Shown in pieces: positions 3,176 through 60,215 of a stretch of DNA of 64,000 bases. Source of the stretch: Phapecoctavirus DIJ07P2; the sequence record OZ035771.1; one strand, given 5' to 3'. Each line of letters opens with the position of its first letter. Position 1 is the stretch's first letter. Position numbers and translations under genes: made by a program. The notes beneath the pieces are model-generated. The model did not search any database, was not told the DNA's origin, and was given only the letters and a program-made list of their open reading frames with translations.

Positions 3176-3178
3176 GGC

Positions 3179-3233: not shown

Positions 3234-3251
3234 TATTTGTAAGGTGGTAGA

Positions 3252-3509: not shown

Positions 3510-3510
3510 T

Positions 3511-4122: not shown

Positions 4123-4150
4123 CATAGTGAAATTATGCAAGAGGCTTACA

Positions 4151-4246
4151 ATGATTAATAAAGGAAATAGCTTGACGGTTGGAACGATTAACGCTATCAT
4201 TCTCGCCGTTCCATTTTGGGTTGTAGTAGCGGCTATTATTTTCTAA
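4151..4246 (+). CDS. hydrophobic micro-protein (31 aa, single TM helix)
   Basis: ATG 4151 after AGAGG; MINKGNSLTVGTINAIILAVPFWVVVAAIIF; below 60-aa track cutoff. Confidence 0.45.
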   Translation: MINKGNSLTVGTINAIILAVPFWVVVAAIIF

Positions 4247-4255
4247 AAAATATTC

Positions 4256-4316
4256 TTGACAACGTTTTTTAATCTGATAAGATGTATCACATAGGGCGGC
4301 GGAATACTTCCCCGCC
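4256..4316 (+). promoter_or_regulatory. early promoter / 5' hairpin cassette 5
   Basis: -35 TTGACA 4256, -10 TAAGAT 4278, stem GGCGGCGG/CCCCGCC. Confidence 0.6.
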
Positions 4317-4337
4317 AAAACAAAAAAGGGTAACACA

Positions 4338-4700
4338 ATGAGCAAGCAAATCAATACTATCATGTTTAATCTGGTATCTTTCCGCGATGATATGAAAAAT
4401 TTACCACGTGAAACGGTTGATATTCATGTTTCAGCTTATCGCGCCCTTATTGACATGTTACCGCTAAAACGTGATCAACATGCCGCTAATATGATGCTTA
4501 ATGCTATGCTTAAAAAGATGATTCAAACGGATCTCACCCTGGCATATGAGTATCAAGGGCGCTTATATGCAAATTACAACAGAGCGGTACCTGGTCTGGG
4601 AAGTACTGAAGAGTTGCACGGCTTAAACCTGGATCAAAACACTTGGGATAGTATGCGCCGCGTTATGGTATGGGCCGAAAGCGGTAAAATTTACGAATAA
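4338..4700 (+). CDS. hypothetical protein (120 aa)
   Basis: track ORF directly downstream of cassette 5. Confidence 0.6.
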   Translation: MSKQINTIMFNLVSFRDDMKNLPRETVDIHVSAYRALIDMLPLKRDQHAANMMLNAMLKKMIQTDLTLAYEYQGRLYANYNRAVPGLGSTEELHGLNLDQNTWDSMRRVMVWAESGKIYE

Positions 4701-4706
4701 AAACGG

Positions 4707-4763
4707 TTGACACTGTTTTTTATTCTGGTATAGTTTATCACGTAGGGCGGCAATGGTGCCGCC
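4707..4763 (+). promoter_or_regulatory. early promoter / 5' hairpin cassette 6
   Basis: -35 TTGACA 4707, -10 TATAGT 4729, stem GCGGC/GCCGC. Confidence 0.6.
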
Positions 4764-4783
4764 AACAATAAAAGGTTAACATC

Positions 4784-4963
4784 ATGACCATCATTGCAAA
4801 AACTGAGATTATAGGTTTAGATTCGATCCTCCTGGCTTATGAGGAAACTTTAAAAATGTATGTAGTGACCTATGGTGATTATGTGCGTGAATACGAATAC
4901 ATTGATCTTGCTTTCGAATGTTACATTCGCCAGGTCAATAAAGCCTATAACGATTATCGTTAA
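4784..4963 (+). CDS. hypothetical micro-protein (59 aa)
   Basis: ATG 4784 after AAAGG; 60 codons; below track cutoff. Confidence 0.5.
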   Translation: MTIIAKTEIIGLDSILLAYEETLKMYVVTYGDYVREYEYIDLAFECYIRQVNKAYNDYR

Positions 4964-4982
4964 AAGTTTTAGTCTTATACTA

Positions 4983-5034
4983 TTGACAATGAGTGATAGT
5001 ATAAGCATAATAACTTTTATCGGGAATACTTCCC
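4983..5034 (+). promoter_or_regulatory. early promoter / weak hairpin cassette 7
   Basis: -35 TTGACA 4983; short stem GGGAA/TTCCC 5021-5034. Confidence 0.45.
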
Positions 5035-5059
5035 ACTAACCAAAAAAGAGAGTAATATC

Positions 5060-5425
5060 ATGGCTATTAATATCAATGTTTCCTCTTATGCTACCCTGGC
5101 TGACACGGCTAAAATTGAATTATCCAGCATTGAGGCGGTGCATATTAGCGCCCGTCGTTGGTTTCAACAGTCCTACGGTAACACATATTTTTCTTTAATG
5201 GTTGACGTTGAGATCGGCGGTAAACTGATCGAGGTGGTTAACGTTCCGTTTCAATATGGTTATGGTGATCATTTTGATACCGTCGCCCTGGAAGAATTTA
5301 GCAAGGTTATTAATATGGAAGGTAAAGAGTTTTCACGCGGCGCGTATCTTTCCCGTTTTTGCCGTGATAATGGGATCACTGTATACAGTCATGCGAGCGA
5401 TGTTAAACGTAAAAAAGATTTATAA
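5060..5425 (+). CDS. hypothetical protein (121 aa)
   Basis: track ORF; conserved leader and ATG-GCT start. Confidence 0.6.
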   Translation: MAININVSSYATLADTAKIELSSIEAVHISARRWFQQSYGNTYFSLMVDVEIGGKLIEVVNVPFQYGYGDHFDTVALEEFSKVINMEGKEFSRGAYLSRFCRDNGITVYSHASDVKRKKDL

Positions 5426-5431
5426 AAAGCA

Positions 5432-5490
5432 TTGACAGCACGAATAAAAAGAGTAAACTGTATTACATAGAGAGCGGGAACACTTCCCGC
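5432..5490 (+). promoter_or_regulatory. early promoter / 5' hairpin cassette 8
   Basis: -35 TTGACA 5432, -10 TAAACT ~5455, stem GCGGGAA/TTCCCGC. Confidence 0.55.
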
Positions 5491-5515
5491 CTCACTGAAA
5501 AAAGAGATTAACATC

Positions 5516-5755
5516 ATGGCTAAATCAAAAATGTTCTTAGGTCACAAAAATAAAACTCATTGGAATGTAAGCCTTTGGATTAATAACGATGAATCGTTAT
5601 ATCGGTTGGCGAAAGAATTTATCGCCGCTAATACTAATCGTAATGATGCTGCCCGTGATATGATGTTATTCCTGGAACAAACTGGACAAGATAAAACTCC
5701 AGACGGTTTCAAGTATAGCACTACAGCGATCCGCGCCGCGATGGTTGGAATGTAA
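5516..5755 (+). CDS. hypothetical protein (79 aa)
   Basis: track ORF. Confidence 0.6.
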   Translation: MAKSKMFLGHKNKTHWNVSLWINNDESLYRLAKEFIAANTNRNDAARDMMLFLEQTGQDKTPDGFKYSTTAIRAAMVGM

Positions 5756-5768
5756 AGGAGATATAAAA

Positions 5769-5849
5769 ATGAAACATCGTTCTACCTATCTAACAAAACG
5801 TTTTAGCTTAGATCATAAATTGGGCTATTACGGAAGAAATAGAAAATAA
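5769..5849 (+). CDS. possible micro-ORF (26 aa)
   Basis: ATG 5769 with strong AAGGAG 7 nt upstream. Confidence 0.3.
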   Translation: MKHRSTYLTKRFSLDHKLGYYGRNRK

Positions 5850-5850
5850 T

Positions 5851-5910
5851 TTGACAACGTTTAAAATTAGTGTAAGATGTATCACATAGGGCGGGAAGTG
5901 GTTTCCCGCC
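5851..5910 (+). promoter_or_regulatory. early promoter / 5' hairpin cassette 9
   Basis: -35 TTGACA 5851, -10 TAAGAT 5873, stem GCGGGAA/TTCCCGC. Confidence 0.6.
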
Positions 5911-5932
5911 AACAACAGAGAGATTAAAGATT

Positions 5933-6160
5933 ATGGCTATCAATATTGTTCGCGTATCCGGCACCGTTGGCACTTCCCAAGTTATTGCAGTTGTAACAAA
6001 CAAAAAGATTAATGATGTATGTGAAAGCTTGAATAAGTGGGCTATTGTTAATTTTGGGGAATATGCAAGCGTCGAGTACATCGAATCCTACCAGGTGCCA
6101 ACCATCAGCCTAACCGATCTCAACGTTGATCGCTTGTTGTGCCTGGATGAATTAATCTGA
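5933..6160 (+). CDS. hypothetical protein (75 aa)
   Basis: track ORF. Confidence 0.6.
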   Translation: MAINIVRVSGTVGTSQVIAVVTNKKINDVCESLNKWAIVNFGEYASVEYIESYQVPTISLTDLNVDRLLCLDELI

Positions 6161-6170
6161 AAAAAGATTG

Positions 6171-6227
6171 TTGACACCGGAAAGAAAAAGAGTAGAATAT
6201 ATTACATAGGGCGGCAATGGTGCCGCT
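6171..6227 (+). promoter_or_regulatory. early promoter / 5' hairpin cassette 10
   Basis: -35 TTGACA 6171, -10 TAGAAT 6194, stem GCGGC/GCCGC. Confidence 0.6.
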
Positions 6228-6251
6228 CACAACAGAAGAGAGATTATCACG

Positions 6252-6467
6252 ATGGCTAATATCCGCACTTTACTGAAAAATGCAAGTCAAGTTTTATTTT
6301 CAGATGATGAGTATTTCAATAAAGACATTACAGGCGTGAAAAATTTAAAAGACGTGAAGGATGTTATCGGTATTCGTGGATCTTTACGTAAAGGTGACTA
6401 CTATGGTAACAAGGTGCAATATAAACTGTCAAAGGATTACAATTTTACTTTGACAATTATTTCATAA
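6252..6467 (+). CDS. hypothetical protein (71 aa)
   Basis: track ORF. Confidence 0.6.
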   Translation: MANIRTLLKNASQVLFSDDEYFNKDITGVKNLKDVKDVIGIRGSLRKGDYYGNKVQYKLSKDYNFTLTIIS

Positions 6468-6473
6468 AACCGC

Positions 6474-6536
6474 TTGCAATACTGCAAAAATAAAGTAAAC
6501 TGTATTCATCAAGGCGGTGGAATAGCCAACCGCCTA
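6474..6536 (+). promoter_or_regulatory. early promoter / 5' hairpin cassette 11
   Basis: -35 TTGCAA 6474, -10 TAAACT ~6497, stem AGGCGGT/ACCGCCT. Confidence 0.5.
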
Positions 6537-6558
6537 ACAAAGAGAAGAGGAAAACATC

Positions 6559-6726
6559 ATGATCACTTTCGCTACCCGTGAAGCCGCTCGCAACGTTGCA
6601 CGTAAAGTTAACGCCGCCAACCTGGGCGCTACGCTTAAAGCTCCGGTAAAAGATGAATCAGGCAAATGGATCTTCCCTGGTCTGCGTCATGCTGACAAGT
6701 TAGGTACTTTAAGCCTTAAAAAATAA
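6559..6726 (+). CDS. hypothetical basic micro-protein (55 aa)
   Basis: ATG 6559 after AGAGGAAAAC leader; below track cutoff. Confidence 0.5.
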   Translation: MITFATREAARNVARKVNAANLGATLKAPVKDESGKWIFPGLRHADKLGTLSLKK

Positions 6727-6729
6727 TCG

Positions 6730-6766
6730 TTGACTTTTCGTTATAGCGCCTTACAATGGGCGCTAT
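6730..6766 (+). promoter_or_regulatory. early promoter / hairpin cassette 12 (-10 inside the loop)
   Basis: -35 TTGACT 6730, -10 TACAAT 6752 lying in the loop of stem TAGCGCC/GGCGCTA. Confidence 0.45.
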
Positions 6767-6801
6767 AGAGAAGAGAAACCACTACTAACAAGGAAACCAT
6801 T

Positions 6802-7023
6802 ATGATCACTTTCGCTATTGTCGCCGTTGTTGCTGGTCAAGTTTACGTAAATGAGACATTTACTACAGAAGACAAGGCAGCAGGAGATATAACCGCCGTT
6901 TACAATGAGTGCAAGGCAGTAGAAAGGATGTTAGCGCCTTGTATGCTAATGAGTGAACGCCAGGACGGAATAACAGTATTTACTAACATTGGAACAGGGT
7001 ACCAAATGGTAGTAACAAAATAA
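6802..7023 (+). CDS. hypothetical protein (73 aa)
   Basis: track ORF. Confidence 0.55.
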   Translation: MITFAIVAVVAGQVYVNETFTTEDKAAGDITAVYNECKAVERMLAPCMLMSERQDGITVFTNIGTGYQMVVTK

Positions 7024-7026
7024 AGC

Positions 7027-7083
7027 TTGACACCGATTTAATTTTTAGTAAACTGTTACACGTAGGGCGGGAATAGTTCCCGC
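7027..7083 (+). promoter_or_regulatory. early promoter / 5' hairpin cassette 13
   Basis: -35 TTGACA 7027, -10 TAAACT 7049, stem GCGGGA/TCCCGC 7067-7083. Confidence 0.6.
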
Positions 7084-7102
7084 TCAAAAAGAGAGAAAGA
7101 TC

Positions 7103-7456
7103 ATGAAAGCACAAAATGCAATTAAAGAGTACATCCTTGCCGCTATCGGTTTTAATGATTACGGTATTACAACAGAAAAAGAGAAGATCGCGGAATTGAT
7201 GCGCCGTTTTAATTCCGAGTACTGGTACCCTGATAACCAATCACGTTTTAATTATAGTATTGTTAAAGCACTTGCATCATGGTTACAAGGTTTGCCATCA
7301 GATATTAATATCGCTTTCGAATATTGGGAAGTGGATCGCTTGTTAACATCCTGGGGATACATTAAAGAGAATAGCAGCGATGATAAAATCCAACGAGAAA
7401 GGGAAAATTATTGGCTTTATATTGCAGGCGTGATCCTTGCTTGCTCTTATGAATGA
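7103..7456 (+). CDS. hypothetical protein (117 aa)
   Basis: track ORF. Confidence 0.6.
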   Translation: MKAQNAIKEYILAAIGFNDYGITTEKEKIAELMRRFNSEYWYPDNQSRFNYSIVKALASWLQGLPSDINIAFEYWEVDRLLTSWGYIKENSSDDKIQRERENYWLYIAGVILACSYE

Positions 7457-7462
7457 TAAACC

Positions 7463-7516
7463 TTGACAATTTTACAAAACAGTTTAAATTAACAATATAG
7501 CGGCAATGGTGCCGCT
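7463..7516 (+). promoter_or_regulatory. early promoter / 5' hairpin cassette 14
   Basis: -35 TTGACA 7463; stem AGCGGC/GCCGCT 7499-7516. Confidence 0.5.
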
Positions 7517-7535
7517 CATATAAAGAGGAAACAAA

Positions 7536-7682
7536 ATGAATACATCTAATCGCGCAGAAAAAATTCAATCTTCCAAGATCCGCAAGGCCTGGAACGAGGA
7601 AGTGATCCGCAAAGGCGACAAGCGTAATAAAACAAAGCGCGGGAAGAGTGACAAATATAATTGGATGGATTTAGAGGATTAA
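7536..7682 (+). CDS. basic micro-protein (48 aa)
   Basis: ATG 7536 after AAGAGGAAAC; lysine/arginine-rich; below track cutoff. Confidence 0.5.
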   Translation: MNTSNRAEKIQSSKIRKAWNEEVIRKGDKRNKTKRGKSDKYNWMDLED

Positions 7683-7688
7683 CATAAC

Positions 7689-7716
7689 AAGGGCGCACCA
7701 AGCGCCCTTTCTTTTT
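7689..7716 (+). terminator. rho-independent terminator (conserved hairpin type, copy 1)
   Basis: AAGGGCGCACCAAGCGCCCTT followed by TCTTTTT. Confidence 0.6.
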
Positions 7717-7737
7717 ATATGCAGAGGATAAACAAAG

Positions 7738-7923
7738 ATGACTTTAAACGAGCTTAAAACAGCCTACAACGCAACATTAAAAATAGCCGTGCGTTACCGT
7801 GATGCGTATGGTTTTATCGCGCAGGGCGTGATCCTGGGCTTTTCTGACGATGGTTTGATCTATGTTGATGCACATCACAACAAGGTTAAACCTGAAAACG
7901 TCATTAATATAAAATATCTTTAA
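7738..7923 (+). CDS. hypothetical protein (61 aa)
   Basis: track ORF; AGAGGA RBS. Confidence 0.5.
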   Translation: MTLNELKTAYNATLKIAVRYRDAYGFIAQGVILGFSDDGLIYVDAHHNKVKPENVINIKYL

Positions 7924-7929
7924 AAATGG

Positions 7930-7988
7930 TTGACACCATAACCGGACCTGTTAAACTGTATTACATCAGGCGGGGAATAGTTCCCCAC
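7930..7988 (+). promoter_or_regulatory. early promoter / 5' hairpin cassette 15
   Basis: -35 TTGACA 7930, -10 TAAACT 7952, stem GGGG/CCCC. Confidence 0.5.
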
Positions 7989-8008
7989 CATACAAAAAGG
8001 TAAATATT

Positions 8009-8215
8009 ATGATCACCGCAAAACAAGAAAAAATCATTATCGACGTTGCAGCCGTTGCCGCTATCGCTATTATTGGATCTTATTATGATACCCGTTTCCC
8101 GTCGGCTATGCATGAGGTCGCCGCCGTTGCATCAGTTGGCGTACTGTTTTACGTTGGTAAACGCTATTTATCACCAATGATTAACAAGCTGACACCGTGG
8201 AAAAATAAAGGTTGA
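8009..8215 (+). CDS. small membrane protein (68 aa)
   Basis: track ORF; hydrophobic stretches. Confidence 0.55.
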   Translation: MITAKQEKIIIDVAAVAAIAIIGSYYDTRFPSAMHEVAAVASVGVLFYVGKRYLSPMINKLTPWKNKG

Positions 8216-8266
8216 TCCTGTTTTACATTATGTTATAGTTATCGTGTAGGGCGGCAATGGTGCCGC
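8212..8266 (+). promoter_or_regulatory. early promoter / 5' hairpin cassette 16
   Basis: -35 TTGATC 8212, -10 TATAGT 8234, stem GGCGGC/GCCGC. Confidence 0.5.
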
Positions 8267-8286
8267 GCCCCTTTGAGGATGCAATC

Positions 8287-8571
8287 ATGAGTAAAGCTAA
8301 CACCGTGCTAATGTTTTCCCTGATTAATGATCTCGCTTACTTGTCCAACATGACGCAGGAGGGTAACACATTAACGGCAACATTCACCAATAAGCTTGAC
8401 CGAGTGATCATCGTCTCACTGAAAACAGTTAGTAAAGGCTTTTACTTGTTAGCTTATCATTGTATCACTGATACCGATGAGACAAGCCAGGACTATAGCG
8501 CCCCTTTCCCTGAATCAATGGCACGGGAGATCATCGCCGCCGTTGTAAATGATGGTTTGTTTACTGCATAA
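8287..8571 (+). CDS. hypothetical protein (94 aa)
   Basis: track ORF 8257..8571 trimmed to ATG 8287. Confidence 0.55.
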   Translation: MSKANTVLMFSLINDLAYLSNMTQEGNTLTATFTNKLDRVIIVSLKTVSKGFYLLAYHCITDTDETSQDYSAPFPESMAREIIAAVVNDGLFTA

Positions 8572-8589
8572 AATAATTTAGAAAAAGGC

Positions 8590-8646
8590 TTGCAATCATT
8601 TTGAGATAGTGTATATTTAATTCATAGGGCGGCGGGAATAGTTCCC
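8590..8646 (+). promoter_or_regulatory. early promoter / 5' hairpin cassette 17
   Basis: -35 TTGCAA 8590, -10 TATATT 8612, stem GGGAA/TTCCC. Confidence 0.45.
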
Positions 8647-8669
8647 AAAGCAAACGAGAGGATTACACG

Positions 8670-8789
8670 ATGAGCAAGTACACAGTAGAATACACGGTAG
8701 AGAATCCGGCAGTATCCGAAGGTAAAAAGATGACATTTACCATCAGTATAATCGCTTTCGTTGTCACTATCTTATCAATCATCTTATAA
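8670..8789 (+). CDS. hydrophobic micro-protein (39 aa)
   Basis: ATG 8670 after GAGAGG; C-terminal TM segment; below track cutoff. Confidence 0.45.
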   Translation: MSKYTVEYTVENPAVSEGKKMTFTISIIAFVVTILSIIL

Positions 8790-8799
8790 GGTGCACACC

Positions 8800-8961
8800 A
8801 TGAAAACAACAGATATTATCAAAGAGATCGCCCTTGCCGCTGGCGTTGAGATCGAGGAAGTGATCGCGCTCAATCTTACAGAAAACGATCTGCGCAACTA
8901 TGAAGCGGAAAGCGTGAAAGCAAGTGGCGCGGTCCTGGCATATAATCCGGCTAACAAATAG
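8800..8961 (+). CDS. hypothetical micro-protein (53 aa)
   Basis: track ORF 8761..8961 trimmed to ATG 8800. Confidence 0.45.
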   Translation: MKTTDIIKEIALAAGVEIEEVIALNLTENDLRNYEAESVKASGAVLAYNPANK

Positions 8962-8962
8962 T

Positions 8963-9017
8963 TTGACAAGCTGAATCAACCTGATAAGATGTATCACATA
9001 GGGGCGACAAGCGCCCC
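8963..9017 (+). promoter_or_regulatory. early promoter / 5' hairpin cassette 18
   Basis: -35 TTGACA 8963, -10 TAAGAT 8985, stem GGGGCG/CGCCCC. Confidence 0.6.
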
Positions 9018-9038
9018 GCCTAACAGAGAGATAGAATC

Positions 9039-9317
9039 ATGACCATCGCCAAATTATCCGCCGAAGAAATCGAACAAGTGCTAACTACTAACCTGGAACA
9101 ATGGAAACGTGAGGCAGATATACAATCAGCACAATGGCTTAACGAGAAGTTAACACCGGATGATCTGAGTAAGATTATAGATCCTCAATTCTACGAAGAT
9201 ATTCACGACACCGTTTTAAGCGTCGAGGATGTACTTGATAAGCATTATATTGCTACTGATTTGCAGGTTTACGGGCGTAAAAACTTTATTACTATTCACG
9301 ACATTTACAATAACTAA
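9039..9317 (+). CDS. hypothetical protein (92 aa)
   Basis: track ORF. Confidence 0.6.
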   Translation: MTIAKLSAEEIEQVLTTNLEQWKREADIQSAQWLNEKLTPDDLSKIIDPQFYEDIHDTVLSVEDVLDKHYIATDLQVYGRKNFITIHDIYNN

Positions 9318-9325
9318 GGGATAAC

Positions 9326-9454
9326 ATGAATCCGAAAGATATGCAAGCATGGAAAGGGTACGACGATCTAAGCGCCTTGCGCAATAAGTCAAGCCGTAAC
9401 CTTAGACGGTTAGAAGCAAAGAAAAAGAAAAAACAGTTTGACAAGTCCGCTTAA
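9326..9454 (+). CDS. basic micro-protein (42 aa)
   Basis: ATG 9326 after TAAGGGATAAC; end overlaps next promoter; below track cutoff. Confidence 0.4.
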   Translation: MNPKDMQAWKGYDDLSALRNKSSRNLRRLEAKKKKKQFDKSA

Positions 9455-9494
9455 TCTGGTAAAGTGTATCTCGTAGGGCGGCAATGATGCCGCT
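9438..9494 (+). promoter_or_regulatory. early promoter / 5' hairpin cassette 19
   Basis: -35 TTGACA 9438, -10 TAAAGT 9460, stem GGCGGC/GCCGC (loop AATGAT). Confidence 0.55.
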
Positions 9495-9514
9495 CACAAG
9501 AAGAGAGAAAAATC

Positions 9515-9799
9515 ATGAAGATCACAAAAAGCCTAACTAATTATGCAGCACGTCGCGGATTATGCTTAACCGTTGAAAACTCAGGGAAAGAAGACTTTTT
9601 GTGTTTTTGGGAGCTTGAAAATGATTGCGAGTGGATGTTTTCTTATTCTATCTGCGAAGATCAAAACGGTTGTTTGTTAACCTGGCGCGGTAATATCTAT
9701 TTACCGGAAGAAATTAAAGAAGAGTTACCAGGTACGATCATGACAGAGAGACAGCTTAAGGAAGTGATCAATTTTGTAGGGCAAAACATTAAAAAATAA
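9515..9799 (+). CDS. hypothetical protein (94 aa)
   Basis: track ORF. Confidence 0.6.
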   Translation: MKITKSLTNYAARRGLCLTVENSGKEDFLCFWELENDCEWMFSYSICEDQNGCLLTWRGNIYLPEEIKEELPGTIMTERQLKEVINFVGQNIKK

Positions 9800-9800
9800 T

Positions 9801-9862
9801 TTGACAGCACGCAAACAACGTAGTAAAGTTTACCACATAGGGCGGCGGAATGGTCCACCGCT
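9801..9862 (+). promoter_or_regulatory. early promoter / 5' hairpin cassette 20
   Basis: -35 TTGACA 9801; CACATAGGGCGG box; GC stem ~9841-9862. Confidence 0.55.
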
Positions 9863-9884
9863 CACAACAGAAGAGAAACAAATC

Positions 9885-10055
9885 ATGATCCCGACTATGT
9901 TTTATGTATCGCGCAAAGGTCACAATATTTTTTGGTCTGAAGATTTAAATGAAGCCATGACGTTTGCCCGTGATCGTGTTGCTATCGGTGGCGTTAACAT
10001 CACCGTAACCGATGAAAATGGCATTGAATACTATAACGGCGACGATGAAGAGTAA
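9885..10055 (+). CDS. hypothetical micro-protein (56 aa)
   Basis: track ORF 9801..10055 trimmed to ATG 9885. Confidence 0.5.
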   Translation: MIPTMFYVSRKGHNIFWSEDLNEAMTFARDRVAIGGVNITVTDENGIEYYNGDDEE

Positions 10056-10062
10056 TTAATAA

Positions 10063-10082
10063 GGCGGGGAATACTTCCCGCC
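10063..10082 (+). other. orphan GC hairpin of the cassette type, no promoter
   Basis: GGCGGGGAATACTTCCCGCC directly after a stop codon with no -35/-10 upstream. Confidence 0.5.
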
Positions 10083-10121
10083 ACGCAGTGAATTTTCCGT
10101 TTGGGAAGTAAAAAATAAATC

Positions 10122-10182
10122 TTGACGATAATTTGTTATCTGATAGAATGTATTTCGTAGGGCGGGGCAATAAGGCAAGCCC
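10122..10182 (+). promoter_or_regulatory. early promoter / 5' hairpin cassette 21
   Basis: -35 TTGACG 10122, -10 TAGAAT 10144, TCGTAGGGCGG box. Confidence 0.55.
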
Positions 10183-10199
10183 ACAAAGAGGAAAATAAA

Positions 10200-10568
10200 A
10201 TGAGCAAATCAGCAATTAAAGCACTTGAAAAAGCACAAGAAGTGATCGCAACGTCAACCACTGGCGCAAAGGTTAATCTCGTTTGTTATCTGACAGATGA
10301 AACTATCCGTAAAAATTGGCGTAATGCTGATTTACTGGCTTGCTTATTGATTAATAGTGTCGCTAATGCTTTCCAGTGTGAAACAGCCGAGAGCCTGGAG
10401 GAAAACTTGTTTGATAATATGGATCAAGCCATTGAAACCTATATACAATCAAACCTGGATAGCTGGAACAGTAAAACATGGCCCGACAATTTACGCGATA
10501 CAACTGATCAACTGATCCGCCTTGCCCTGATGGTTGAACGCGATAACGTTTACAACAGCACAAAGTAA
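10200..10568 (+). CDS. hypothetical protein (122 aa)
   Basis: track ORF. Confidence 0.6.
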   Translation: MSKSAIKALEKAQEVIATSTTGAKVNLVCYLTDETIRKNWRNADLLACLLINSVANAFQCETAESLEENLFDNMDQAIETYIQSNLDSWNSKTWPDNLRDTTDQLIRLALMVERDNVYNSTK

Positions 10569-10706: not shown

Positions 10707-11126
10707 ATGAACATTAAATCAAATAATCCAGCTTACTCCTTCGATAACGCTTTTTGTCACGGTAGCGCCGCCAAAGGCTTCGAAATCGATGGTAAATTGG
10801 TTATCGTGAACGTTGACGGGGAAGAGGTTGCAGTGTATCCGGTAAACGATGTTAAAAGCCGTTTACAATGCCGCATGGATGTTACCGCATATCAGCTTGA
10901 TCCGGTCCGTGTAGTTGCCCTGGTATTAGAGGAAGAGATCAAAGCAATGCATCACAGTAATAAGTTTATTGGTGACGCGCAGGATAATATGAACGTTTGC
11001 CGCCATAAAGTTAATGAAGCATTGAAAGAATGCGGTTTTAAGGATCTGATGATTAAACGTGATGAAAAATTCCGCTTTCGTAATGACCTGGCAAACCGGA
11101 TCTACTCAATCTATGAAGCTTTATAA
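10707..11126 (+). CDS. hypothetical protein (139 aa)
   Basis: track ORF. Confidence 0.6.
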   Translation: MNIKSNNPAYSFDNAFCHGSAAKGFEIDGKLVIVNVDGEEVAVYPVNDVKSRLQCRMDVTAYQLDPVRVVALVLEEEIKAMHHSNKFIGDAQDNMNVCRHKVNEALKECGFKDLMIKRDEKFRFRNDLANRIYSIYEAL

Positions 11127-11139
11127 TCGACAACAAAAC

Positions 11140-11169
11140 AAGGGGCGCACAAAGCGCCCTTTCTTTTTG
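11140..11169 (+). terminator. rho-independent terminator (conserved type, copy 3)
   Basis: AAGGGGCGCACAAAGCGCCCTT followed by TCTTTTTG. Confidence 0.6.
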
Positions 11170-11199
11170 CCCGAACAATGTTGATAGCTTTCGCCTATG

Positions 11200-11680
11200 A
11201 AAAACCGACACAGAACAAAACTGAATAAATCGCGGTATCGAGCTAATCAACCAGCAAACGAATAACCATACCTCCCAGGGTTACAGGCTGTTAGAGAGCC
11301 ATTTAGAGCGGTTAAAATCGATCAACAACCAACAACAAACCATCAAAAACACCCTTTTACCTCCTTTCTAGTGCAATGATAACCATTATCATCTACCCAT
11401 GATTATCTATGCAATATAAGCGCATAATTATAATGTTGATAATAGTTCGCAACAACTAACCAACAAACAACATAAAACAATAAGCAAACTAATCATAATC
11501 AAAGGAATAATAGCAAGATGATTGATAACGACAAACAATCGAACCATGATGAATACTAAGCAAGATAACGATAACACGACAAAACAACCAACTAACGAAC
11601 AATAACAAACGAAACCATTAAAATAATAACTATTAGCAAAATAGTGCCTGAATGAAATCATTACAAAACGAATCATTCAC
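11200..11680. repeat. A+C-rich, strand-asymmetric low-complexity tract
   Basis: plus strand dominated by CAA/ACA/AAC repeats with very few G; no credible ORF. Confidence 0.5.
11372..11390. promoter_or_regulatory. Fur-box-like 19-mer
   Basis: TGCAATGATAACCATTATC; 3' 15 nt match Fur consensus at 14/15. Confidence 0.35.
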
Positions 11681-11699
11681 AGAGTCATCATTAGCACGC

Positions 11700-12060
11700 T
11701 ATGCCGGACACATAGCGAGCTAATAATAAGCCAACTACACCCCAACAATCATAACCATCGGTGACGGTTATTTCTTGTTACTGCGTAGCTTGCAATAATT
11801 GCAAGCGTAATGACGCTTACACTTATTGCGCTGGCTTATTATTAGCATTATATGTAATTACCAAGATCATAACATTAGCGCAATAACAATAGTCATTGTA
11901 ATAATTACATGAGTTATCACTATCGTTCAGTGTGATCATCATTAGCACAGTGAATAATTGCACGTAGCAACATGAGCGAATAGCGACAGGTTGCATAGTG
12001 TGCACATAGTGTATAAACATACAAGAAAATAAAGGCTAATCTTTTGGGGGCGAATACTAT
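11700..12060. repeat. cluster of palindromes and inverted repeats
   Basis: GCTAATAATAAGCC (11718) / GGCTTATTATTAGC (11838); CTTGCAAT-A-ATTGCAAG; AGCGT-AATG-ACGCT; ACAAT-AGTC-ATTGT; ATAGTGT direct repeat. Confidence 0.5.
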
Positions 12061-12150
12061 CGCGTAGCGATATGTTGAGCACCTTCTCTTAAACGTAAAT
12101 AAAATCAGAAAATTCTTGATTTATTTTAGTTTTTATGTTAATAAACGTTT

Positions 12151-12169
12151 AAATAATAATCATTCTCAT
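12151..12169. promoter_or_regulatory. Fur-box-like 19-mer
   Basis: AAATAATAATCATTCTCAT, 14/19 to Fur consensus. Confidence 0.3.
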
Positions 12170-12328
12170 ATAAATAATAGTCTGCTTGTCATGAGCGGGA
12201 TTAGTTGACAATGTTCCGTCATATGATGAAGTTGCCAAGCCATTGATAAATAAGTGTTTGTGTGATTTATAATCAGGTGGCCCACCTTGTCGCTATGTTG
12301 GCATGAGCCTTGCATAAGTCATTGAATA

Positions 12329-12350
12329 CGAATGATAATTATTCTCATTC
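12329..12350. promoter_or_regulatory. Fur-box-like palindrome
   Basis: CGAATGATAATTATTCTCATTC, near-perfect palindrome, 14/19 to Fur consensus. Confidence 0.35.
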
Positions 12351-12690
12351 GCATGATATTTGGGAATTGTCGCTGCGTGGACCTGACGGCCCGAAAATTC
12401 GCGTTAAGCACTTCTTACGTATACGCCATGATTTTTGCCATATGATATTGATTCTATTAGATATTCTTGCCATTATTGCCATGAAACATGGTGTCCCGAA
12501 ATAATCTCTCCCCGTAGATATTTTGGGTTACTTTTTATACAAGAGTGGGGTGTCAAAAATAATCAGTATATATGGGATAATTGATAGGAATCCCCTATGA
12601 TAATTCGATTGTAATTCCCTAAGATTGATCGTATGATGTTGGTGATTGATGATTGCCATGAAAGATGGCTAACGATGAGAGGAGATTGTC

Positions 12691-18378: not shown

Positions 18379-18504
18379 GAAATTGTTTAATATTCGTGAG
18401 AATCGTGATGGATCGTTCTCTGTAGTCAATGAATTTAACGTTTCGGTTGGGACTTTTATTACTAAACGTCAAGCAGAACAAGTAAGAGATACTTTAAACA
18501 AGTA
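18370..18504 (+). CDS. hypothetical micro-protein (44 aa)
   Basis: ATG after GGAGGTAGAA; below track cutoff. Confidence 0.4.
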
Positions 18505-18522
18505 AGTTTTTAAGGGGGACTT

Positions 18523-18942
18523 ATGTTAGGTAAGATCAAAGCTTTTTTCAAACGTGTTATTGAAGGAAGTCCAACAGAAGGTGCATTAGGAAGATCCCTA
18601 ACAGGAGAACCACTTGCCATAATTTCTATCAGTCGGCATGGTGGATATTCCATTCGACAAACACCTTTAGGTATAAAAGGTAGTATGCTTTCTTGGACAA
18701 TATCTCAAGTTGGTGATAACAGGCTTGCAGCTATAGCATTGCTTCGTGGGGAGTATGACTATTGTTTATCAGCATCTTGTAAAAAGCACCTTATAGAGCA
18801 CATTAGAGACAGAGTAGAAAGAGAAGGCGGATACTTCTTCGAAACTAAGAGAAACCAACAAGGGACTCTTGACTTCACTAAGGTTTACTGGGACAATCAT
18901 ACTCGTCAAACTGTTGAACAAATTCTGGAGGAAAGATGTTAA
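18523..18942 (+). CDS. hypothetical protein (139 aa)
   Basis: track ORF; AAGGGGGA RBS. Confidence 0.55.
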   Translation: MLGKIKAFFKRVIEGSPTEGALGRSLTGEPLAIISISRHGGYSIRQTPLGIKGSMLSWTISQVGDNRLAAIALLRGEYDYCLSASCKKHLIEHIRDRVEREGGYFFETKRNQQGTLDFTKVYWDNHTRQTVEQILEERC

Positions 18943-19145
18943 AAGCTTTTGCTATATACTCTACTGTAGGATTCTTTTATTGGATTATAGTTATTGTTGG
19001 ATGTTGGTTAGGTTCTTGTGTTGTAATGGGAGAATGGTTAACATACAATGTATTTGAATGGGATGTAGTTTGTAGATCATTACTTGTTATATGGACTGTT
19101 ATTGTTTGTTGGATAACTGTTAGTCTAACATTGGATCTATACTGA
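18936..19145 (+). CDS. small membrane protein (69 aa)
   Basis: two hydrophobic helices, Cys/Trp-rich. Confidence 0.45.
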   Translation: MLKAFAIYSTVGFFYWIIVIVGCWLGSCVVMGEWLTYNVFEWDVVCRSLLVIWTVIVCWITVSLTLDLY

Positions 19146-19438
19146 TTAATAGATGGTAGATAGATGATCATAGTTTATCTACCTTCACTTACGTTTCATA
19201 CCTCACTATCGTGAGTAACATGAAACATTATTATATAGAAATCTACTACTCGCTATCGCTCGTAAACATATGTTTAGGGTACCATATTTTTTTGAAAAAG
19301 TCAATGCTGATTCACCTATCAATTATCTGTTTAAGATAAGTCTTACCTATCAATCTAAGTCTTAACTAGTATTGCACCTATAGTAAGACTATTCCTATAG
19401 TTATTAACCCTCTTCTTCTGTAGAATGTAATTAGATCC
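19146..19438. repeat. hairpins and iteron-like short repeats upstream of the 19506 operon
   Basis: GGTAGATA..TATCTACC hairpin; GTTTCAT..CCTCAC-tatc-GTGAG..ATGAAAC nested hairpin; ACCTAT(C)AAT x2, CCTATAG x2, AAGTCTTA/TAAGACT inverted. Confidence 0.45.
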
Positions 19439-19467
19439 TTGACAAACTCACAAAACTTGTGTTACAT
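19439..19467 (+). promoter_or_regulatory. sigma70-like promoter
   Basis: TTGACA 19439, 17-nt spacer, TTACAT. Confidence 0.45.
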
Positions 19468-19505
19468 TGTGTCTCACAGGTGAATAATACCGAACAGGAG
19501 GAAGA

Positions 19506-19721
19506 ATGAGTTCCAATTTTCTATACAAAGCAAAAGATTCACGAGATGGAGAGAACCATTGGTGGTTGATCACAGAAGATGGTGTTATCATCCTACCGTG
19601 GGACGGAGAGACGAAAGTTCAAATATTAGAGAAAGTAAAAGGTGTTAGTTTTAATGTTAGTCATGACATAACAACTTTCAAAGCTTTTGCTATGAATCCT
19701 AGTCTTGTTGCTGAATGGTAA
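19506..19721 (+). CDS. hypothetical protein (71 aa)
   Basis: track ORF; AGGAGGAAGA RBS. Confidence 0.55.
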   Translation: MSSNFLYKAKDSRDGENHWWLITEDGVIILPWDGETKVQILEKVKGVSFNVSHDITTFKAFAMNPSLVAEW

Positions 19722-19953
19722 TCCAGGAGAAAATATGACTAAAATGTATGCAGCCGTTGATAAGCTGGATGGGTCTGATTCTGTTTTTATTTTGAATAAA
19801 ATGGGTGTCTTAGTTTATGCCCGAACTTCTCAAAACATAGAACACCAAGTGGAAGCAGCACAAATTTTAGAGCAAATAACCCCTCCATACCTATACTCAA
19901 ATGTTGAGCGTTTTAACGATGCACTTGGTTTGACGTTAATAGCGGAATGGTAA
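19705..19953 (+). CDS. hypothetical protein (82 aa)
   Basis: track ORF. Confidence 0.5.
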   Translation: MLLNGNPGENMTKMYAAVDKLDGSDSVFILNKMGVLVYARTSQNIEHQVEAAQILEQITPPYLYSNVERFNDALGLTLIAEW

Positions 19954-20153
19954 TAATGGCGAAAATGTTGGAAATTGATAATGTCGTAACAATCACTACG
20001 TCCATACCTTGTCCTCCTATGCCTTGCCCCTATTGTGGTGGTGCAGGATATGTTATGGCGGATGTAGGTCAAATTTACGAGTGTAACCCGTGCAAAACCA
20101 CAGGCTATATCGAAATAGAATCAGAGGAGAAACACTATGAGCCAAAACGCTAA
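19947..20153 (+). CDS. zinc-finger micro-protein (68 aa)
   Basis: CPYCGGAGY...CNPCKTTGY, CxxCxGxG-type repeats. Confidence 0.5.
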   Translation: MVIMAKMLEIDNVVTITTSIPCPPMPCPYCGGAGYVMADVGQIYECNPCKTTGYIEIESEEKHYEPKR

Positions 20154-20586
20154 AGAAAAAGAAGTAATCACGGTAATCCGTCAGATGGAAGGTGCCGAAA
20201 ACAATGCTTTTGTTACTAAGATTCTTCTTAATATCTTTGAAGATATTATTTTAAACAATCCTGGTCATAAAGATTATCAGTATGATGTTATGATGGGTGC
20301 TTTGCTTGAGATTAACAAAAACACTTTTGCTGAATATGAGCAACACATGCTTTTACCAGAGGAAGATCAGGATTATTTGTTATCTGGTGCTTTAAGTGCA
20401 CAAGAAAATTTCTACCACGTTCTTAATATGGCTTATGCAGATGAACTTGCTGTTTCCCTTGAAGAGCGTATTCAAATGGTTCGTGATGTGATGAATGAAC
20501 AAATCCAAGAAGTTGAAGACTTGGTAGCAGAACCTTTAGCAGAAATTCGTGCAGCTATTGAAAAACAAAAAGGAACTCAATCATGA
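20137..20586 (+). CDS. hypothetical protein (149 aa)
   Basis: track ORF. Confidence 0.5.
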   Translation: MSQNAKEKEVITVIRQMEGAENNAFVTKILLNIFEDIILNNPGHKDYQYDVMMGALLEINKNTFAEYEQHMLLPEEDQDYLLSGALSAQENFYHVLNMAYADELAVSLEERIQMVRDVMNEQIQEVEDLVAEPLAEIRAAIEKQKGTQS

Positions 20587-22302: not shown

Positions 22303-22325
22303 AACCCGCTTCGGCGGGTTTTTTC
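22303..22325 (+). terminator. rho-independent terminator
   Basis: AACCCGC-ttcg-GCGGGTT followed by TTTTT. Confidence 0.7.
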
Positions 22326-22580: not shown

Positions 22581-22623
22581 GCTAGAACCCACCTAAATCA
22601 AACAGAGACGCTCTAAAATAGGA

Positions 22624-22650
22624 AAGGCACCCAAGTGGGTGCCTTTATTT
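22624..22650. terminator. bidirectional terminator between convergent modules
   Basis: AAGGCACCC-aagt-GGGTGCCTT with A-tract upstream and T-tract downstream. Confidence 0.65.
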
Positions 22651-22922: not shown

Positions 22923-22965
22923 TTTATTCTCCTAATAAGAAAGGGGCCGAAGCCCCTTGAGTGGT

Positions 22966-28374: not shown

Positions 28375-28464
28375 AATATTTCTCCTCTATTGGTTGATAG
28401 GTTAAGTTTATCAAGCTTCCAGATTTCTGTCAATAAAAAACCCGCCGAAGCGGGTTATTATTTA

Positions 28465-59961: not shown

Positions 59962-60215
59962 TCTAGCCTCCTAAACGCGTCTCTGACGCACTTTTTATAT
60001 ATAAGATGATAAATCACCTTACCTAGTAAGTGAACTTGCTCTACGAGCCTCTTATGAAGCTTATGTTATAGGCTATACTATTGCTACCTATTTAAGCAAG
60101 GTTTTTTGCACAAAGAAAATAATTTTTAATAAAACTCTTGACTTTTGTGTTCGAAGTATGCTACCCTAGAAATCTATTAACGAGCGCAGCGAGTTAAGGT
60201 TTTAGGTTGTTGATG

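What the first reader, a model, noticed from the sequence alone, without database searches (positions are those of the whole stretch)
19146..19467. Iteron-like repeats and nested hairpins upstream of the 19506 operon
This ~300-bp gap inside the plus-strand module contains a GGTAGATA...TATCTACC hairpin, a nested hairpin GTTTCAT/CCTCAC-tatc-GTGAG/ATGAAAC, and short repeats ACCTAT(C)AAT x2, CCTATAG x2 and AAGTCTTA / TAAGACT in inverted orientation, immediately before a TTGACA-17-TTACAT promoter. This points to regulated, possibly middle-class, transcription distinct from the cassette promoters.
Basis: seen in the sequence. Interest (0 to 1): 0.4.

Follow-up and report, generated by a model that had tools for sequence, protein, structure and literature searches.

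The report
Backward-facing promoter with leader hairpin

Summary
The window is a phAPEC8-like coliphage (Phapecoctavirus). The two hairpins fold better than shuffles; the short repeats are only marginally above chance.

- TTGACT-17-TGgTACCCT at 19304-19276, with a predicted start at A19269.
- A 21-nt hairpin at 19266-19246 with core CGAGCG-AT-AGCGAG, a GCGNNAGC mini-hairpin stacked on tandem G.A pairs.

A covariance model finds two copies in the window (19239-19315 minus; 60127-60203 plus) and three per genome, with nothing in between. In five lineages the arrangement is fixed: one unit antisense in the early block (this one), one at a divergent junction, and one co-directional. The stem flanks covary, with 14 G.T pairs and no A.C pairs, so the hairpin forms on the transcript-sense strand.

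The same unit heads the operon of integrase-primase islands in Citrobacter, Buttiauxella and Scandinavium.

Best reading: the gap is a divergent promoter region. A leftward non-coding, antisense transcript sets a boundary, and TTGACA-18-TACATT drives the 19506 genes. No transcript has been observed, and function is inferred. There is no evidence for iterons or an origin in this gap.

Rated a new variant of a known kind, of moderate interest.

The parts
19299..19304 (-). -35 hexamer TTGACT of the leftward unit (unit A)
   Evidence: Conserved as TTGACT/TTGATT/TTTACT in type-A units of five lineages. Lies inside the covariance-model hit 19239-19315, 77.1 bits.
19276..19284 (-). Extended -10 TGgTACCCT (17-nt spacer from the -35); TACCCT invariant in all copies
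   Evidence: TG.TACCCTA occurs only at the three units in each whole genome.
19269..19269 (-). Predicted transcription start (A, 7 nt after the -10, preceded by a pyrimidine)
   Evidence: Inferred from spacing. Most units have a pyrimidine followed by a purine at this position. Not measured.
19246..19266 (-). Leader hairpin TTTA-CGAGCG-AT-AGCGAG-TAG. C-G, tandem G.A/A.G, G-C, C-G and a GATA loop, extended by three flanking pairs (TTA/TAG); the outermost T19266 is unpaired.
   Evidence: Box identical in all type-A units. Flanking pairs covary: 16/18, 13/18 and 18/18 paired, 14 G.T against 0 A.C, 0 of 5000 permutations as good. The GCGNNAGC mini-hairpin class is described in PMC13037366.
19193..19226 (.). 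Hairpin 2 (GTTTCAT/ATGAAAC enclosing CTCAC-TATC-GTGAG)
   Evidence: The same position carries ATTGC/GCAAT + TTACTC/GAGTAA in phiWec190 and ATAGTGT/ACACTAT in Tr1. Strand of action not settled.
19155..19183 (+). Hairpin 1, 10 nt after the stop codon of the 69-aa gene. 8 bp on either strand, 11 bp with two G.U pairs on the + strand only.
   Evidence: In phiWec190 the + strand fold is much better (z -3.3 against -1.4). No U-tract, and not called as an intrinsic terminator.
19314..19354 (.). Two ACCTATCAAT copies 31 bp apart (ATTGATAGGT on the minus strand), upstream of the leftward -35
   Evidence: Both kept in phiWec190/PsgM04F. A CTATCAAT/ATTGATAG word recurs upstream of type-A units in VEcB, IMG 3300030441 and Tr1, in either orientation. 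Function unknown.
19337..19401 (.). TAAGTCTTA x2 plus inverted TAAGACT, and CCTATAGT x2, between the two divergent promoters
   Evidence: Specific to Phapecoctavirus proper beyond 19361. Statistically marginal.
19439..19468 (+). Rightward promoter-like site TTGACA-18-(TG)TACATT for the 19506 operon
   Evidence: 10 of 12 matches, TG present. It lies 37 nt before the ATG, with AGGAGG at 19496-19501. phiWec190 has its own TTGTAA-17-TATACT at the analogous place (read).
60127..60203 (+). Second copy of the unit in the window (unit B): TTGACT 60138-60143, TACCCT 60162-60167, box CGAGCGCAGCGAG 60181-60193 with a TTAA/TTAA extension
   Evidence: (71.4 bits). Sits at the divergent junction and points into the small genes and the tRNA cluster.

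Best explanation
The 360-bp gap is a divergent promoter region embedded in the rightward early gene block.

Its conserved core is a leftward unit on the minus strand. It consists of a sigma70-family extended -10 promoter (TTGACT-17-TGgTACCCT), a predicted start at A19269, and, four nucleotides later, a compact, very stable hairpin. The hairpin core is CGAGCG-AT-AGCGAG, a GCGNNAGC mini-hairpin stacked on a CGAG/GAGC tandem G.A motif, with three covarying flanking pairs.

This promoter-plus-5'-hairpin unit is a portable module. There are exactly three per genome in Stephanstirmvirinae, and the same module heads the operon of integrase-primase islands in enterobacterial chromosomes.

In this gap the unit fires against the flanking genes and encodes no protein. 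It would therefore make a non-coding RNA that runs back through hairpins 2 and 1 and into the 3' end of the upstream operon.

The most likely role is a transcriptional boundary. Head-on collision and sense/antisense pairing would limit read-through from the upstream early promoters. The 19506-22258 genes would then depend on their own promoter, TTGACA-18-TACATT. The 5' hairpin would stabilise the RNA, or give one factor a common handle on all three units.

Shown by computation: the conservation, copy number, arrangement, hairpin covariation and strand, and the absence of an ORF. Inferred: that the promoter fires, the start site, and the boundary and stabiliser functions.
For: - Conservation: intergenic 19155-19361 is 83% identical in phiWec190/PsgM04F, and the core aligns with phi92-like phages and Tr1, where nothing else in the 461-nt query does.
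- Discrete family: model R1 scores 77.1 and 71.4 bits for two window sites and 63-78 bits for three sites per whole genome. The next hit scores 17.5 bits. The box and TG.TACCCTA each occur only at those three sites.
- Promoter reading: there is a near-consensus -35, a 17-18 nt spacer, a TG extension, and A at -11 and T at -7. In that orientation the unit points into downstream genes in unit B, unit C, the enterobacterial islands and the divergent pairs.
- Fixed arrangement A/B/C in five lineages, with A always antisense.
- Hairpin on the transcript-sense strand: the flanks pair in 16/18, 13/18 and 18/18 contexts, with 14 G.T and 0 A.C, and 0 of 5000 permutations do as well.
- No conserved ORF downstream of unit A on either strand.
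- Synteny: the unit lies next to the 19506 gene family in Phapecoctavirus and VEcB.
- Islands: integrase, unit, small ORFs, endonuclease VII-like, DUF5906 primase.
Against: - No transcript data exist for any phage of this group, so promoter activity and the start site are predictions.
- The -10 matches TATAAT at only 3 of 6 positions, and the generic promoter scan does not list it.
- There is no intrinsic terminator after the hairpins on the minus strand, so the length of the RNA is unknown.
- Hairpins 1 and 2 fold better on the + strand, so they may have nothing to do with the leftward RNA.
- The gene the unit reads into is not conserved, so no specific antisense target can be named.
- In L052 and L046 the box starts so close to the -10 that part of the extended stem would not be transcribed.
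- GCGNAGC-type loops are best known as DNA, not RNA, hairpins.
Confidence: 0.5

Rival explanations
1. The three units form a factor-dependent temporal promoter class. A phage-encoded protein, or an alternative sigma such as sigmaS, recognises TGnGCTACCCTA and/or the leader hairpin. It could act as an activator or as a nut/put-like processive antitermination handle. It would switch on the long blocks headed by units B and C, and at the same time send antisense transcription from unit A back into the early block. The islands would carry the same unit in order to sense infection.
For: - The CCC in the -10 is invariant and the box is invariant, while the spacing between them varies from 10 to 16 nt. 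That fits two recognition modules.
- Unit B heads the tRNA and structural block, and unit C lies 1.4 kb inside the head of another block.
- An integrated island should keep its primase operon silent until infection, yet it uses this promoter.
- The -13C, -8C and downstream AA match the sigmaS-type extended -10 consensus TCTATACTTAA.
- By my own knowledge, lambda nutL/nutR and HK022 putL/putR are likewise hairpins just downstream of early promoters.
Against: - No candidate factor was identified.
- There is no lambda-type boxA next to the hairpin.
- The near-consensus -35 plus the TG extension should work with unmodified sigma70 holoenzyme.
- The islands share nothing else with the phage genomes.
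- An HTH repressor-like gene in island L042 could explain island silence without any phage factor.
Confidence: 0.2
2. The units are replication-priming sites. Transcription from the promoter forms an R-loop, and the very stable mini-hairpin on the displaced non-template strand keeps it open or marks a primase or helicase entry site, as at T4 oriF/oriG, the T7 origin, G4 ori or RSF1010 ssiA. Under this reading the gap would be one of three origins.
For: - GCGNAGC/GCGNNAGC hairpins are documented at the G4, St-1 and alpha3 origins, at RSF1010 ssiA and at N4 promoters.
- Unit A makes no protein.
- Unit B is followed in all four lineages by AT-only tracts of 13-38 nt.
- The islands that carry the unit encode a primase.
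Against: - AT-only tracts follow only type B, not types A or C or the islands, so the origin-like feature is not a property of the unit or of this gap.
- There are no DnaA boxes and no true iterons.
- The units are co-oriented with genes and sit in 5'-leader position.
- Abundant G.T pairs in the stem suit RNA at least as well as DNA.
- There is no N4-like virion RNA polymerase; the largest ORF is 1077 aa.
Confidence: 0.12
3. The short direct and inverted repeats are operator or iteron sites for a DNA-binding protein that controls the rightward TTGACA-18-TACATT promoter, and the hairpins are part of that control.
For: - The repeats lie between two divergent promoters.
- Both CCTATCAAT copies are kept in phiWec190, and a CTATCAAT word recurs near type-A units elsewhere.
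- All window-wide copies of ACCTATCAAT and TAAGTCTTA are in this gap.
Against: - There are only two copies of each word, with P = 0.06-0.25 against shuffles.
- The orientation of the word differs between lineages.
- Repeats right of 19361 are lineage-specific.
- No IHF consensus is present.
- The hairpins lie 210-280 nt upstream of that promoter, beyond the leftward unit.
- The rightward promoter is not conserved across genera.
Confidence: 0.1
4. The unit is mainly a mobile promoter/stem-loop cassette, like the T4 PeSL elements, that serves as a recombination joint for shuffling small genes. On this reading its antisense position here has no regulatory purpose.
For: - The genome is rich in promoter-stem-loop cassettes.
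- The phiWec190 lineage has three extra genes inserted exactly at the right edge of the conserved stretch.
- The same unit occurs in unrelated phage contigs and in islands.
Against: The copy number of three, the antisense orientation of type A and an identical box are all maintained in five diverged lineages. That indicates purifying selection on position and orientation.
Confidence: 0.08

Closest known systems
Promoter-early stem-loop (PeSL) cassettes of T4-like phages, and this phage's own cassette promoters at window 2.5-10.2 kb
   Same: A sigma70-type early promoter is followed within a few nucleotides of the start by a stable stem-loop. The cassettes are repeated in the genome and associated with small early genes (PeSL from my own knowledge).
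   Different: - There are only three copies.
- The -10 (TGnTACCCTA) and the hairpin (tandem G.A plus a GNA/GNNA loop rather than a GC-rich Watson-Crick stem) are different and invariant.
- One copy is always antisense.
- The unit is shared with chromosomal islands.
DNA mini-hairpins GCGNAGC / GCGNNAGC (Hirao) at the G4, St-1 and alpha3 complementary-strand origins, RSF1010 ssiA and N4 virion-RNA-polymerase promoters
   Same: The core sequence class is identical (GCG-AT-AGC, GCG-C-AGC, GCG-A-AGC) and it sits next to an initiation site.
   Different: - Here the hairpin lies downstream of a sigma70-type promoter on the non-template/RNA strand, with an added CGAG/GAGC tandem G.A motif.
- There is no ssDNA phage stage, no N4-type polymerase and no fixed distance to the start.
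Lambda nutL/nutR (boxA + boxB) and HK022 putL/putR leader RNA elements
   Same: Small hairpins with G...A-closed loops lie a few tens of nucleotides downstream of early promoters, in a few copies per genome, at the heads of long operons (my own knowledge).
   Different: - There is no boxA.
- No N-like protein was identified.
- The hairpin is almost at the 5' end.
- One copy heads no operon.
Lambda oop RNA, P22 sar and similar phage antisense RNAs
   Same: A short non-coding transcript is made against the direction of an early operon and overlaps the 3' end of the upstream gene (my own knowledge).
   Different: - There is no intrinsic terminator defining the RNA.
- The overlapped gene is not conserved.
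- The promoter and leader are shared with two mRNA-producing units.
Helper/satellite shared promoters (P2 Ogr- and P4 delta-dependent late promoters)
   Same: The same unusual promoter type is present in a lytic phage group and in integrase-primase islands of related hosts (the P2/P4 comparison is from my own knowledge).
   Different: No activator is known, no other shared sequence was found, and helper dependence is untested.

Membership tests
Sigma70-type extended -10 promoter | -35 hexamer close to TTGACA, 16-18 nt upstream of the -10 | tested here: met
   TTGACT (5/6) with a 17-nt spacer. The other copies have 17-18 nt.
Sigma70-type extended -10 promoter | TGn immediately upstream of a -10 hexamer with A at position 2 and T at position 6 | tested here: met
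   TGgTACCCT. TG.TACCCTA is invariant across 18 distinct copies, but the hexamer matches TATAAT at only 3/6 positions.
Sigma70-type extended -10 promoter | Transcripts start 6-9 nt downstream of the -10 in vivo or in vitro | not testable with these tools
   No transcript data were found in the literature searches. Only the sequence context (pyrimidine then purine at the 7th nt) is favourable.
Iteron-type replication origin | Three or more regularly spaced direct repeats of about 17-22 bp | tested here: not met
   Only two copies of each 8-10-nt word, and repeat counts are not significant against shuffles.
Iteron-type replication origin | Adjacent AT-rich unwinding element and/or DnaA boxes | tested here: not met
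   No AT-only run of 12 nt or more within 450 nt downstream or 300 nt upstream of the unit's -10 element, and no DnaA box.
Intrinsic (rho-independent) terminator | G+C-rich stem-loop followed by a U-tract | tested here: not met
   Neither hairpin is listed by the terminator scan on either strand. The stems are A+T-rich and no T-run follows.
GCGNAGC/GCGNNAGC mini-hairpin | Two G-C pairs closing a G-N(1-2)-A loop with a sheared G.A pair | tested here: met
   GCG-AT-AGC here. Other copies have GCG-C-AGC, GCG-A-AGC, GCG-AA-AGC, GCG-GG-AGC and GCG-TA-AGC. The class is defined in PMC13037366. The three-dimensional structure was not tested.
N4-type hairpin promoter | Giant virion RNA polymerase, or another T7-like polymerase, encoded by the phage | tested here: not met
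   The largest ORF in a complete relative is 1077 aa, and ESCO13's gene table for its first 50 kb annotates no RNA polymerase.
N4-type hairpin promoter | Hairpin on the template strand at a fixed distance upstream of the start | tested here: not met
   The hairpin forms on the sense strand (G.T against A.C asymmetry) and lies at a variable distance from the conserved upstream element.
Lambda-type nut site | boxA (CGCTCTTA-like) upstream of the boxB hairpin on the transcript | tested here: not met
   No boxA on the unit's strand near either window copy. The single one-mismatch hit is the complement of the box on the other strand, with a chance expectation of about 0.17.
Lambda-type nut site | Cognate N-like RNA-binding antiterminator | not tested
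   The first genes downstream of units B and C are not arginine-rich. No systematic search was done.
Type I toxin-antitoxin (small membrane toxin + antisense RNA) | The antisense promoter is consistently paired with a small hydrophobic protein gene | tested here: not met
   A hydrophobic 67-69-aa protein is found only in the Phapecoctavirus/phiWec lineage. The convergent genes in Tr1, VEcB and IMG 3300030441 are soluble and unrelated.
Any Rfam family | Covariance-model match | tested here: not met
   No match in 19050-19560 even at E <= 10. Only tRNAs were found in the whole window.

The most novel reading that the evidence does not exclude
The TGnTACCCTA promoter plus the CGAGCG-N-AGCGAG leader hairpin is the recognition site of a still unidentified phage-encoded, or phage-redirected, transcription factor. 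This factor would define a three-promoter regulon in Stephanstirmvirinae. Integrase-primase islands in Citrobacter, Buttiauxella and Scandinavium would have copied the same site to detect infection by these phages. That would be a new helper-satellite pairing and a new kind of hairpin-dependent promoter control. The antisense copy in this gap would serve to shut the early block off.
Probability: 0.15. Interest if true: 0.75.

Novelty: new variant of a known kind. Interest (0 to 1): 0.5.

Why it matters
Phages of this group (phi92, phAPEC8, ESCO13, 536_P1, Mt1B1_P17) are used in therapy and gut-ecology studies, yet nothing is known about how their transcription is organised.

A three-copy promoter-hairpin unit with fixed positions gives a concrete and easily mutated handle on that programme. 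It defines where long transcription units start, and it suggests how the early block is bounded or silenced.

The hairpin extends the natural repertoire of the 'extraordinarily stable' GCGNAGC mini-hairpins to a leader position behind a host-type promoter.

Its presence at the head of integrase-primase islands in enterobacterial chromosomes offers a testable lead to satellites of large virulent myoviruses.

In practice, the unit overlaps a spurious annotated ORF (phAPEC8_0059 and its copies in other records).

Tried and rejected
- Rfam, whole window at gathering score and the gap at E <= 10: nothing but tRNAs.
- Protein-coding explanations:
  - The 42-aa + strand ORF (annotated as phAPEC8_0059 in some records) has a stop at codon 3 in phiWec190.
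  - The 64-aa minus-strand ORF is antisense junk and is not conserved.
  - phi92 gp208 is unrelated to it.
- Toxin/antisense pairing: rejected, because the convergent gene is not conserved.
- Intrinsic terminator for hairpins 1 and 2: not supported.
- DnaA boxes, IHF consensus and lambda boxA: absent.
- N4-type polymerase: absent.
- Palindromes at the start site (AAACATATGTTT and others) as an operator: rejected. Their sequences differ between copies, and most reduce to the usual pyrimidine-purine start context (...C|GAAG...).
- Many IMG/VR singleton hits to the composite pattern, such as the RNA-phage contig L028, are probably chance. My own estimate from an assumed collection size is about 20 chance matches. 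Only loci that also share the TGTGC prefix, a -35 and a stem extension were counted as relatives.
- The marine divergent-pair contigs (L019 type) may be convergent and were not used as evidence.
- Islands compared with phage genomes: nothing is shared except the unit.
- Packaging site: unlikely. The BME3 terminal repeat maps to window ~12.3 kb, away from all units.
- Literature: no description of these elements or of any transcript map for this phage group.

Full report
**What the window is.** The window is a phAPEC8/ESCO13-like coliphage (Phapecoctavirus, Stephanstirmvirinae). The region 18500-20500 is 98-99% identical to about 60 deposited genomes. The finding lies in a 360-bp gap between two rightward genes. 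On the left is a 69-aa membrane-like protein ending at 19145. On the right is a 71-aa protein starting at 19506.

**The observation.**
- The stretch carrying the two hairpins folds better than shuffled sequence: z = -3.1 on the + strand and -2.6 on the - strand.
- The short repeats are weaker. Counts of repeated 8-10-mers in the gap reach only P = 0.06-0.25 against dinucleotide shuffles. However, all window-wide copies of ACCTATCAAT and TAAGTCTTA fall in this gap.
- The promoter-like site reads best as TTGACA-18-TACATT with a TG extension. It ends 37 nt before the ATG, and an AGGAGG ribosome-binding site lies between them.

A sensitive DNA search gave an unexpected result.
- The intergenic stretch 19155-19361 aligns at 83% with the phiWec190/PsgM04F lineage.
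- A core at 19212-19308 aligns with phi92-like phages (a different genus) and with Citrobacter phage Tr1.
- The flanking genes do not align at the DNA level, and their proteins are only 49-58% identical.

The alignment shows a nearly invariant block. Read on the minus strand it is TTGACT (19304-19299), 17 nt, TGgTACCCT (19284-19276), about a dozen variable nucleotides, and then ACGAGCGATAGCGAG (19263-19249).

The small ORFs in the gap are not conserved. One of them is annotated as a gene in some records.

**A discrete three-copy family.**
- The same composite occurs a second time in the window on the plus strand at 60138-60193, at the strand-switch region upstream of the tRNA cluster.
- In two complete genomes, Phapecoctavirus 536P1 and Justusliebigvirus VEcB, there are exactly three copies. 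Both the box and the word TG.TACCCTA occur only there.
- A covariance model built from 18 distinct copies scores 77.1 and 71.4 bits for the two window sites and 63-78 bits for the three sites in each genome. The next best hit scores 17.5 bits.
- Among annotated phages the unit is confined to Stephanstirmvirinae and close relatives, and no record annotates it.

**Fixed arrangement.** The three units keep the same placement in five lineages: the window/536P1, VEcB, and three ~150-kb IMG/VR genomes.
- Type A (the finding) is antisense inside a block of rightward small genes.
- Type B (window 60.1 kb) sits at a divergent junction and points into the small-gene and tRNA side.
- Type C (outside the window) is co-directional, 1.4 kb inside the head of another block; in phi92 it lies just upstream of gp208.

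Read as a promoter, the unit points into genes everywhere except in type A. This supports the promoter reading and shows that the antisense placement of type A is itself conserved. Unit A is syntenic with the 19506 gene family.

**The hairpin.** The box can fold as follows: C-G, then tandem G.A/A.G (the CGAG/GAGC motif), then G-C and C-G, closing a G-N(1-3)-A loop. This is the GCGNAGC/GCGNNAGC 'mini-hairpin' class reviewed in PMC13037366.
- The three nucleotides on either side extend the stem with different sequences in different copies: TTAA/TTAA, TAC/GTA, TTA/TAG, TATA/TATA, CTCCTAT/ATAGGA.
- In 18 distinct contexts these positions pair in 16, 13 and 18 cases.
- The flanking stem positions scored (six on each side of the box) hold 19 G.T pairs and no A.C pairs; 14 of the G.T pairs fall in the innermost four.
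- None of 5000 partner permutations reaches the observed pairing.

The G.T against A.C asymmetry places the hairpin on the strand drawn, meaning the RNA or the non-template DNA strand of the leftward unit. In nearly all copies the seventh nucleotide after the -10 is a purine preceded by a pyrimidine. In most copies the hairpin would therefore begin about three to six nucleotides from the RNA 5' end.

- Hairpin 1 starts 10 nt after the stop codon of the upstream gene. It gains two G.U pairs on the plus strand only. In phiWec190 the plus-strand fold is clearly better (z = -3.3 against -1.4).
- Hairpin 2 keeps its position with different stems in phiWec190 and Tr1.
- Neither hairpin is followed by a U-tract, and neither is called as a terminator.

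I read them as 3'-end structures of the rightward mRNA, which the leftward transcript would cross. That assignment is provisional.

They lie between the leftward -35 and the rightward promoter, so the gap is a divergent promoter region.
- The two ACCTATCAAT copies are kept in the phiWec190 lineage. A CTATCAAT/ATTGATAG word recurs near type-A units in other genera, but in either orientation.
- Everything right of 19361 is specific to Phapecoctavirus proper. In phiWec190 three extra genes are inserted there.
- In VEcB the homologous downstream gene starts about 60 bp from the unit, without a convincing promoter of its own.
- The gap has no DnaA box, no IHF consensus and no AT-only tract.

There is therefore no case for iterons or an origin here.

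**Beyond these phages.**
- Pattern scans found complete units in a few other viral contigs (L042, L046, L052). The units in L042 and L046 have a -35, and all three share the TGTGC prefix, the box and a stem extension.
- Complete units also occur in four enterobacterial assemblies: the Citrobacter sp. OP27 chromosome, and Scandinavium and Buttiauxella (x2) metagenome-assembled genomes.
- In the islands characterised in detail (Citrobacter L072 and IMG/VR contig L042), the unit begins within a few tens of bp of the stop codon of an integrase gene (-35 only 8 nt after it in L072). It heads an operon of small ORFs, an endonuclease VII-like gene and a DUF5906/P4-alpha-type primase.
- These are satellite-like integrative islands. 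They share nothing else with the phage genomes.
- Many other singleton hits are probably chance, given my rough estimate of the collection's size, and were not used.

**Mechanism.** The evidence supports a portable promoter-plus-5'-hairpin module. In this gap it would produce a non-coding leftward RNA.
- I favour a boundary function. Antisense transcription and pairing across 19146-19270 would limit read-through from the upstream early promoters, leaving the 19506-22258 genes to their own promoter. The hairpin would act as a 5' stabiliser or as the common handle for a regulator.
- A factor-dependent promoter class is the most interesting alternative. It is favoured by the invariant CCC in the -10, by the sigmaS-like -13C/-8C and by the use of the unit in islands.
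- A replication-priming role is suggested by the DNA mini-hairpin precedent. It is weakened because AT-only tracts follow only type B.

None of these can be settled without transcript or replication data, and no such data exist for this phage group.

**Verdict.**
It points to the wrong strand and the wrong elements.
- The underlying feature is an undescribed variant of the promoter/leader-hairpin theme. It has an unusually strict copy number and arrangement, and a link to chromosomal islands.
- Interest is moderate.

Noticed in passing
window 60138-60400: Unit B is followed by five GTACT repeats (about 60222-60256) and two AT-only tracts (60252-60289 and 60346-60381), with GATCTAACA nearby. 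An AT-only tract follows the type-B unit in all four lineages examined but never types A or C. This is a candidate promoter-primed replication origin at the divergent junction.
   Followed up: partly
window 2500-10200: At least 15 copies of a promoter-stem-loop cassette (TTGACA-17-TAAGAT/TATAGT, then GTATCACATAGGGCGG...CCGCC), each in front of a small gene. These are the 'cassette promoters' and resemble T4 PeSL elements.
   Followed up: no
window about 11100-12600: A non-coding stretch with a GC-skew flip matches the flanks and, weakly, the 342-bp direct terminal repeat reported for phi92-like phage BME3. It is probably the physical genome end. If so, the 12.6-22.6 kb block would enter the cell first, and unit A would point toward the left end from about 7 kb inside.
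   Followed up: partly
L072 (Citrobacter sp. OP27 chromosome CP191518.1) 238-5332; also L071, L080, L083, L042: Integrative islands with the order integrase, promoter-hairpin unit, small ORFs, endonuclease VII-like, DUF5906 primase, next to host LysE and amidase genes in L072. After the unit comes a second covarying hairpin and a conserved GTTACCTTTG.ACAATAG. They are possibly satellites of Stephanstirmvirinae-like phages, but no other similarity to the phages was found.
   Followed up: partly
L075, L077, L082 (Chloroflexota, Terriglobia and Ardenticatenaceae MAGs): The same box occurs with a 5-bp ATTCC/GGAAT extension (..GTCATTCC GAGCGNAGCGAG GAATC..) in unrelated high-GC bacteria. The tandem-G.A mini-hairpin may therefore be a more general repeat motif.
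   Followed up: no
L019-type IMG/VR contigs (about 24 loci, e.g. L019 2024-2161): Marine or environmental viral contigs carry two divergent TATACCCTATCCCCCCCAA-CGAGCG-N-AGCGAG copies about 70 bp apart, between a large-terminase gene and small leftward genes. It is unclear whether they are related to the coliphage unit or convergent.
   Followed up: partly
window 19211-19339 (+): An ORF annotated as a hypothetical protein in phAPEC8 (phAPEC8_0059), Schickermooser and some other records overlaps the promoter-hairpin unit. It is not conserved (stop at codon 3 in phiWec190) and is probably a spurious gene call.
   Followed up: yes
window 19506-19721 and 19735-19953: The first two genes of the downstream operon are paralogues (71 and 72 aa, both ending ...AEW, 28% identity by tblastn). 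Their homologues keep their place next to unit A in VEcB. Function unknown.
   Followed up: no
L003 (phiWec190) 1774-2442, against window 19361: Three extra small genes are inserted exactly at the right edge of the conserved intergenic stretch in the phiWec190/PsgM04F lineage. The site appears to be a hot spot for gene insertion next to the unit.
   Followed up: partly
window 22303-22324 and 28435-28456: A perfect 22-nt inverted pair of terminator-like hairpins (AACCCGCTTCGGCGGGTTTTTT) lies 6 kb apart. Bidirectional terminator hairpins at 22623-22646 and 22941-22958 mark the convergent junction.
   Followed up: no
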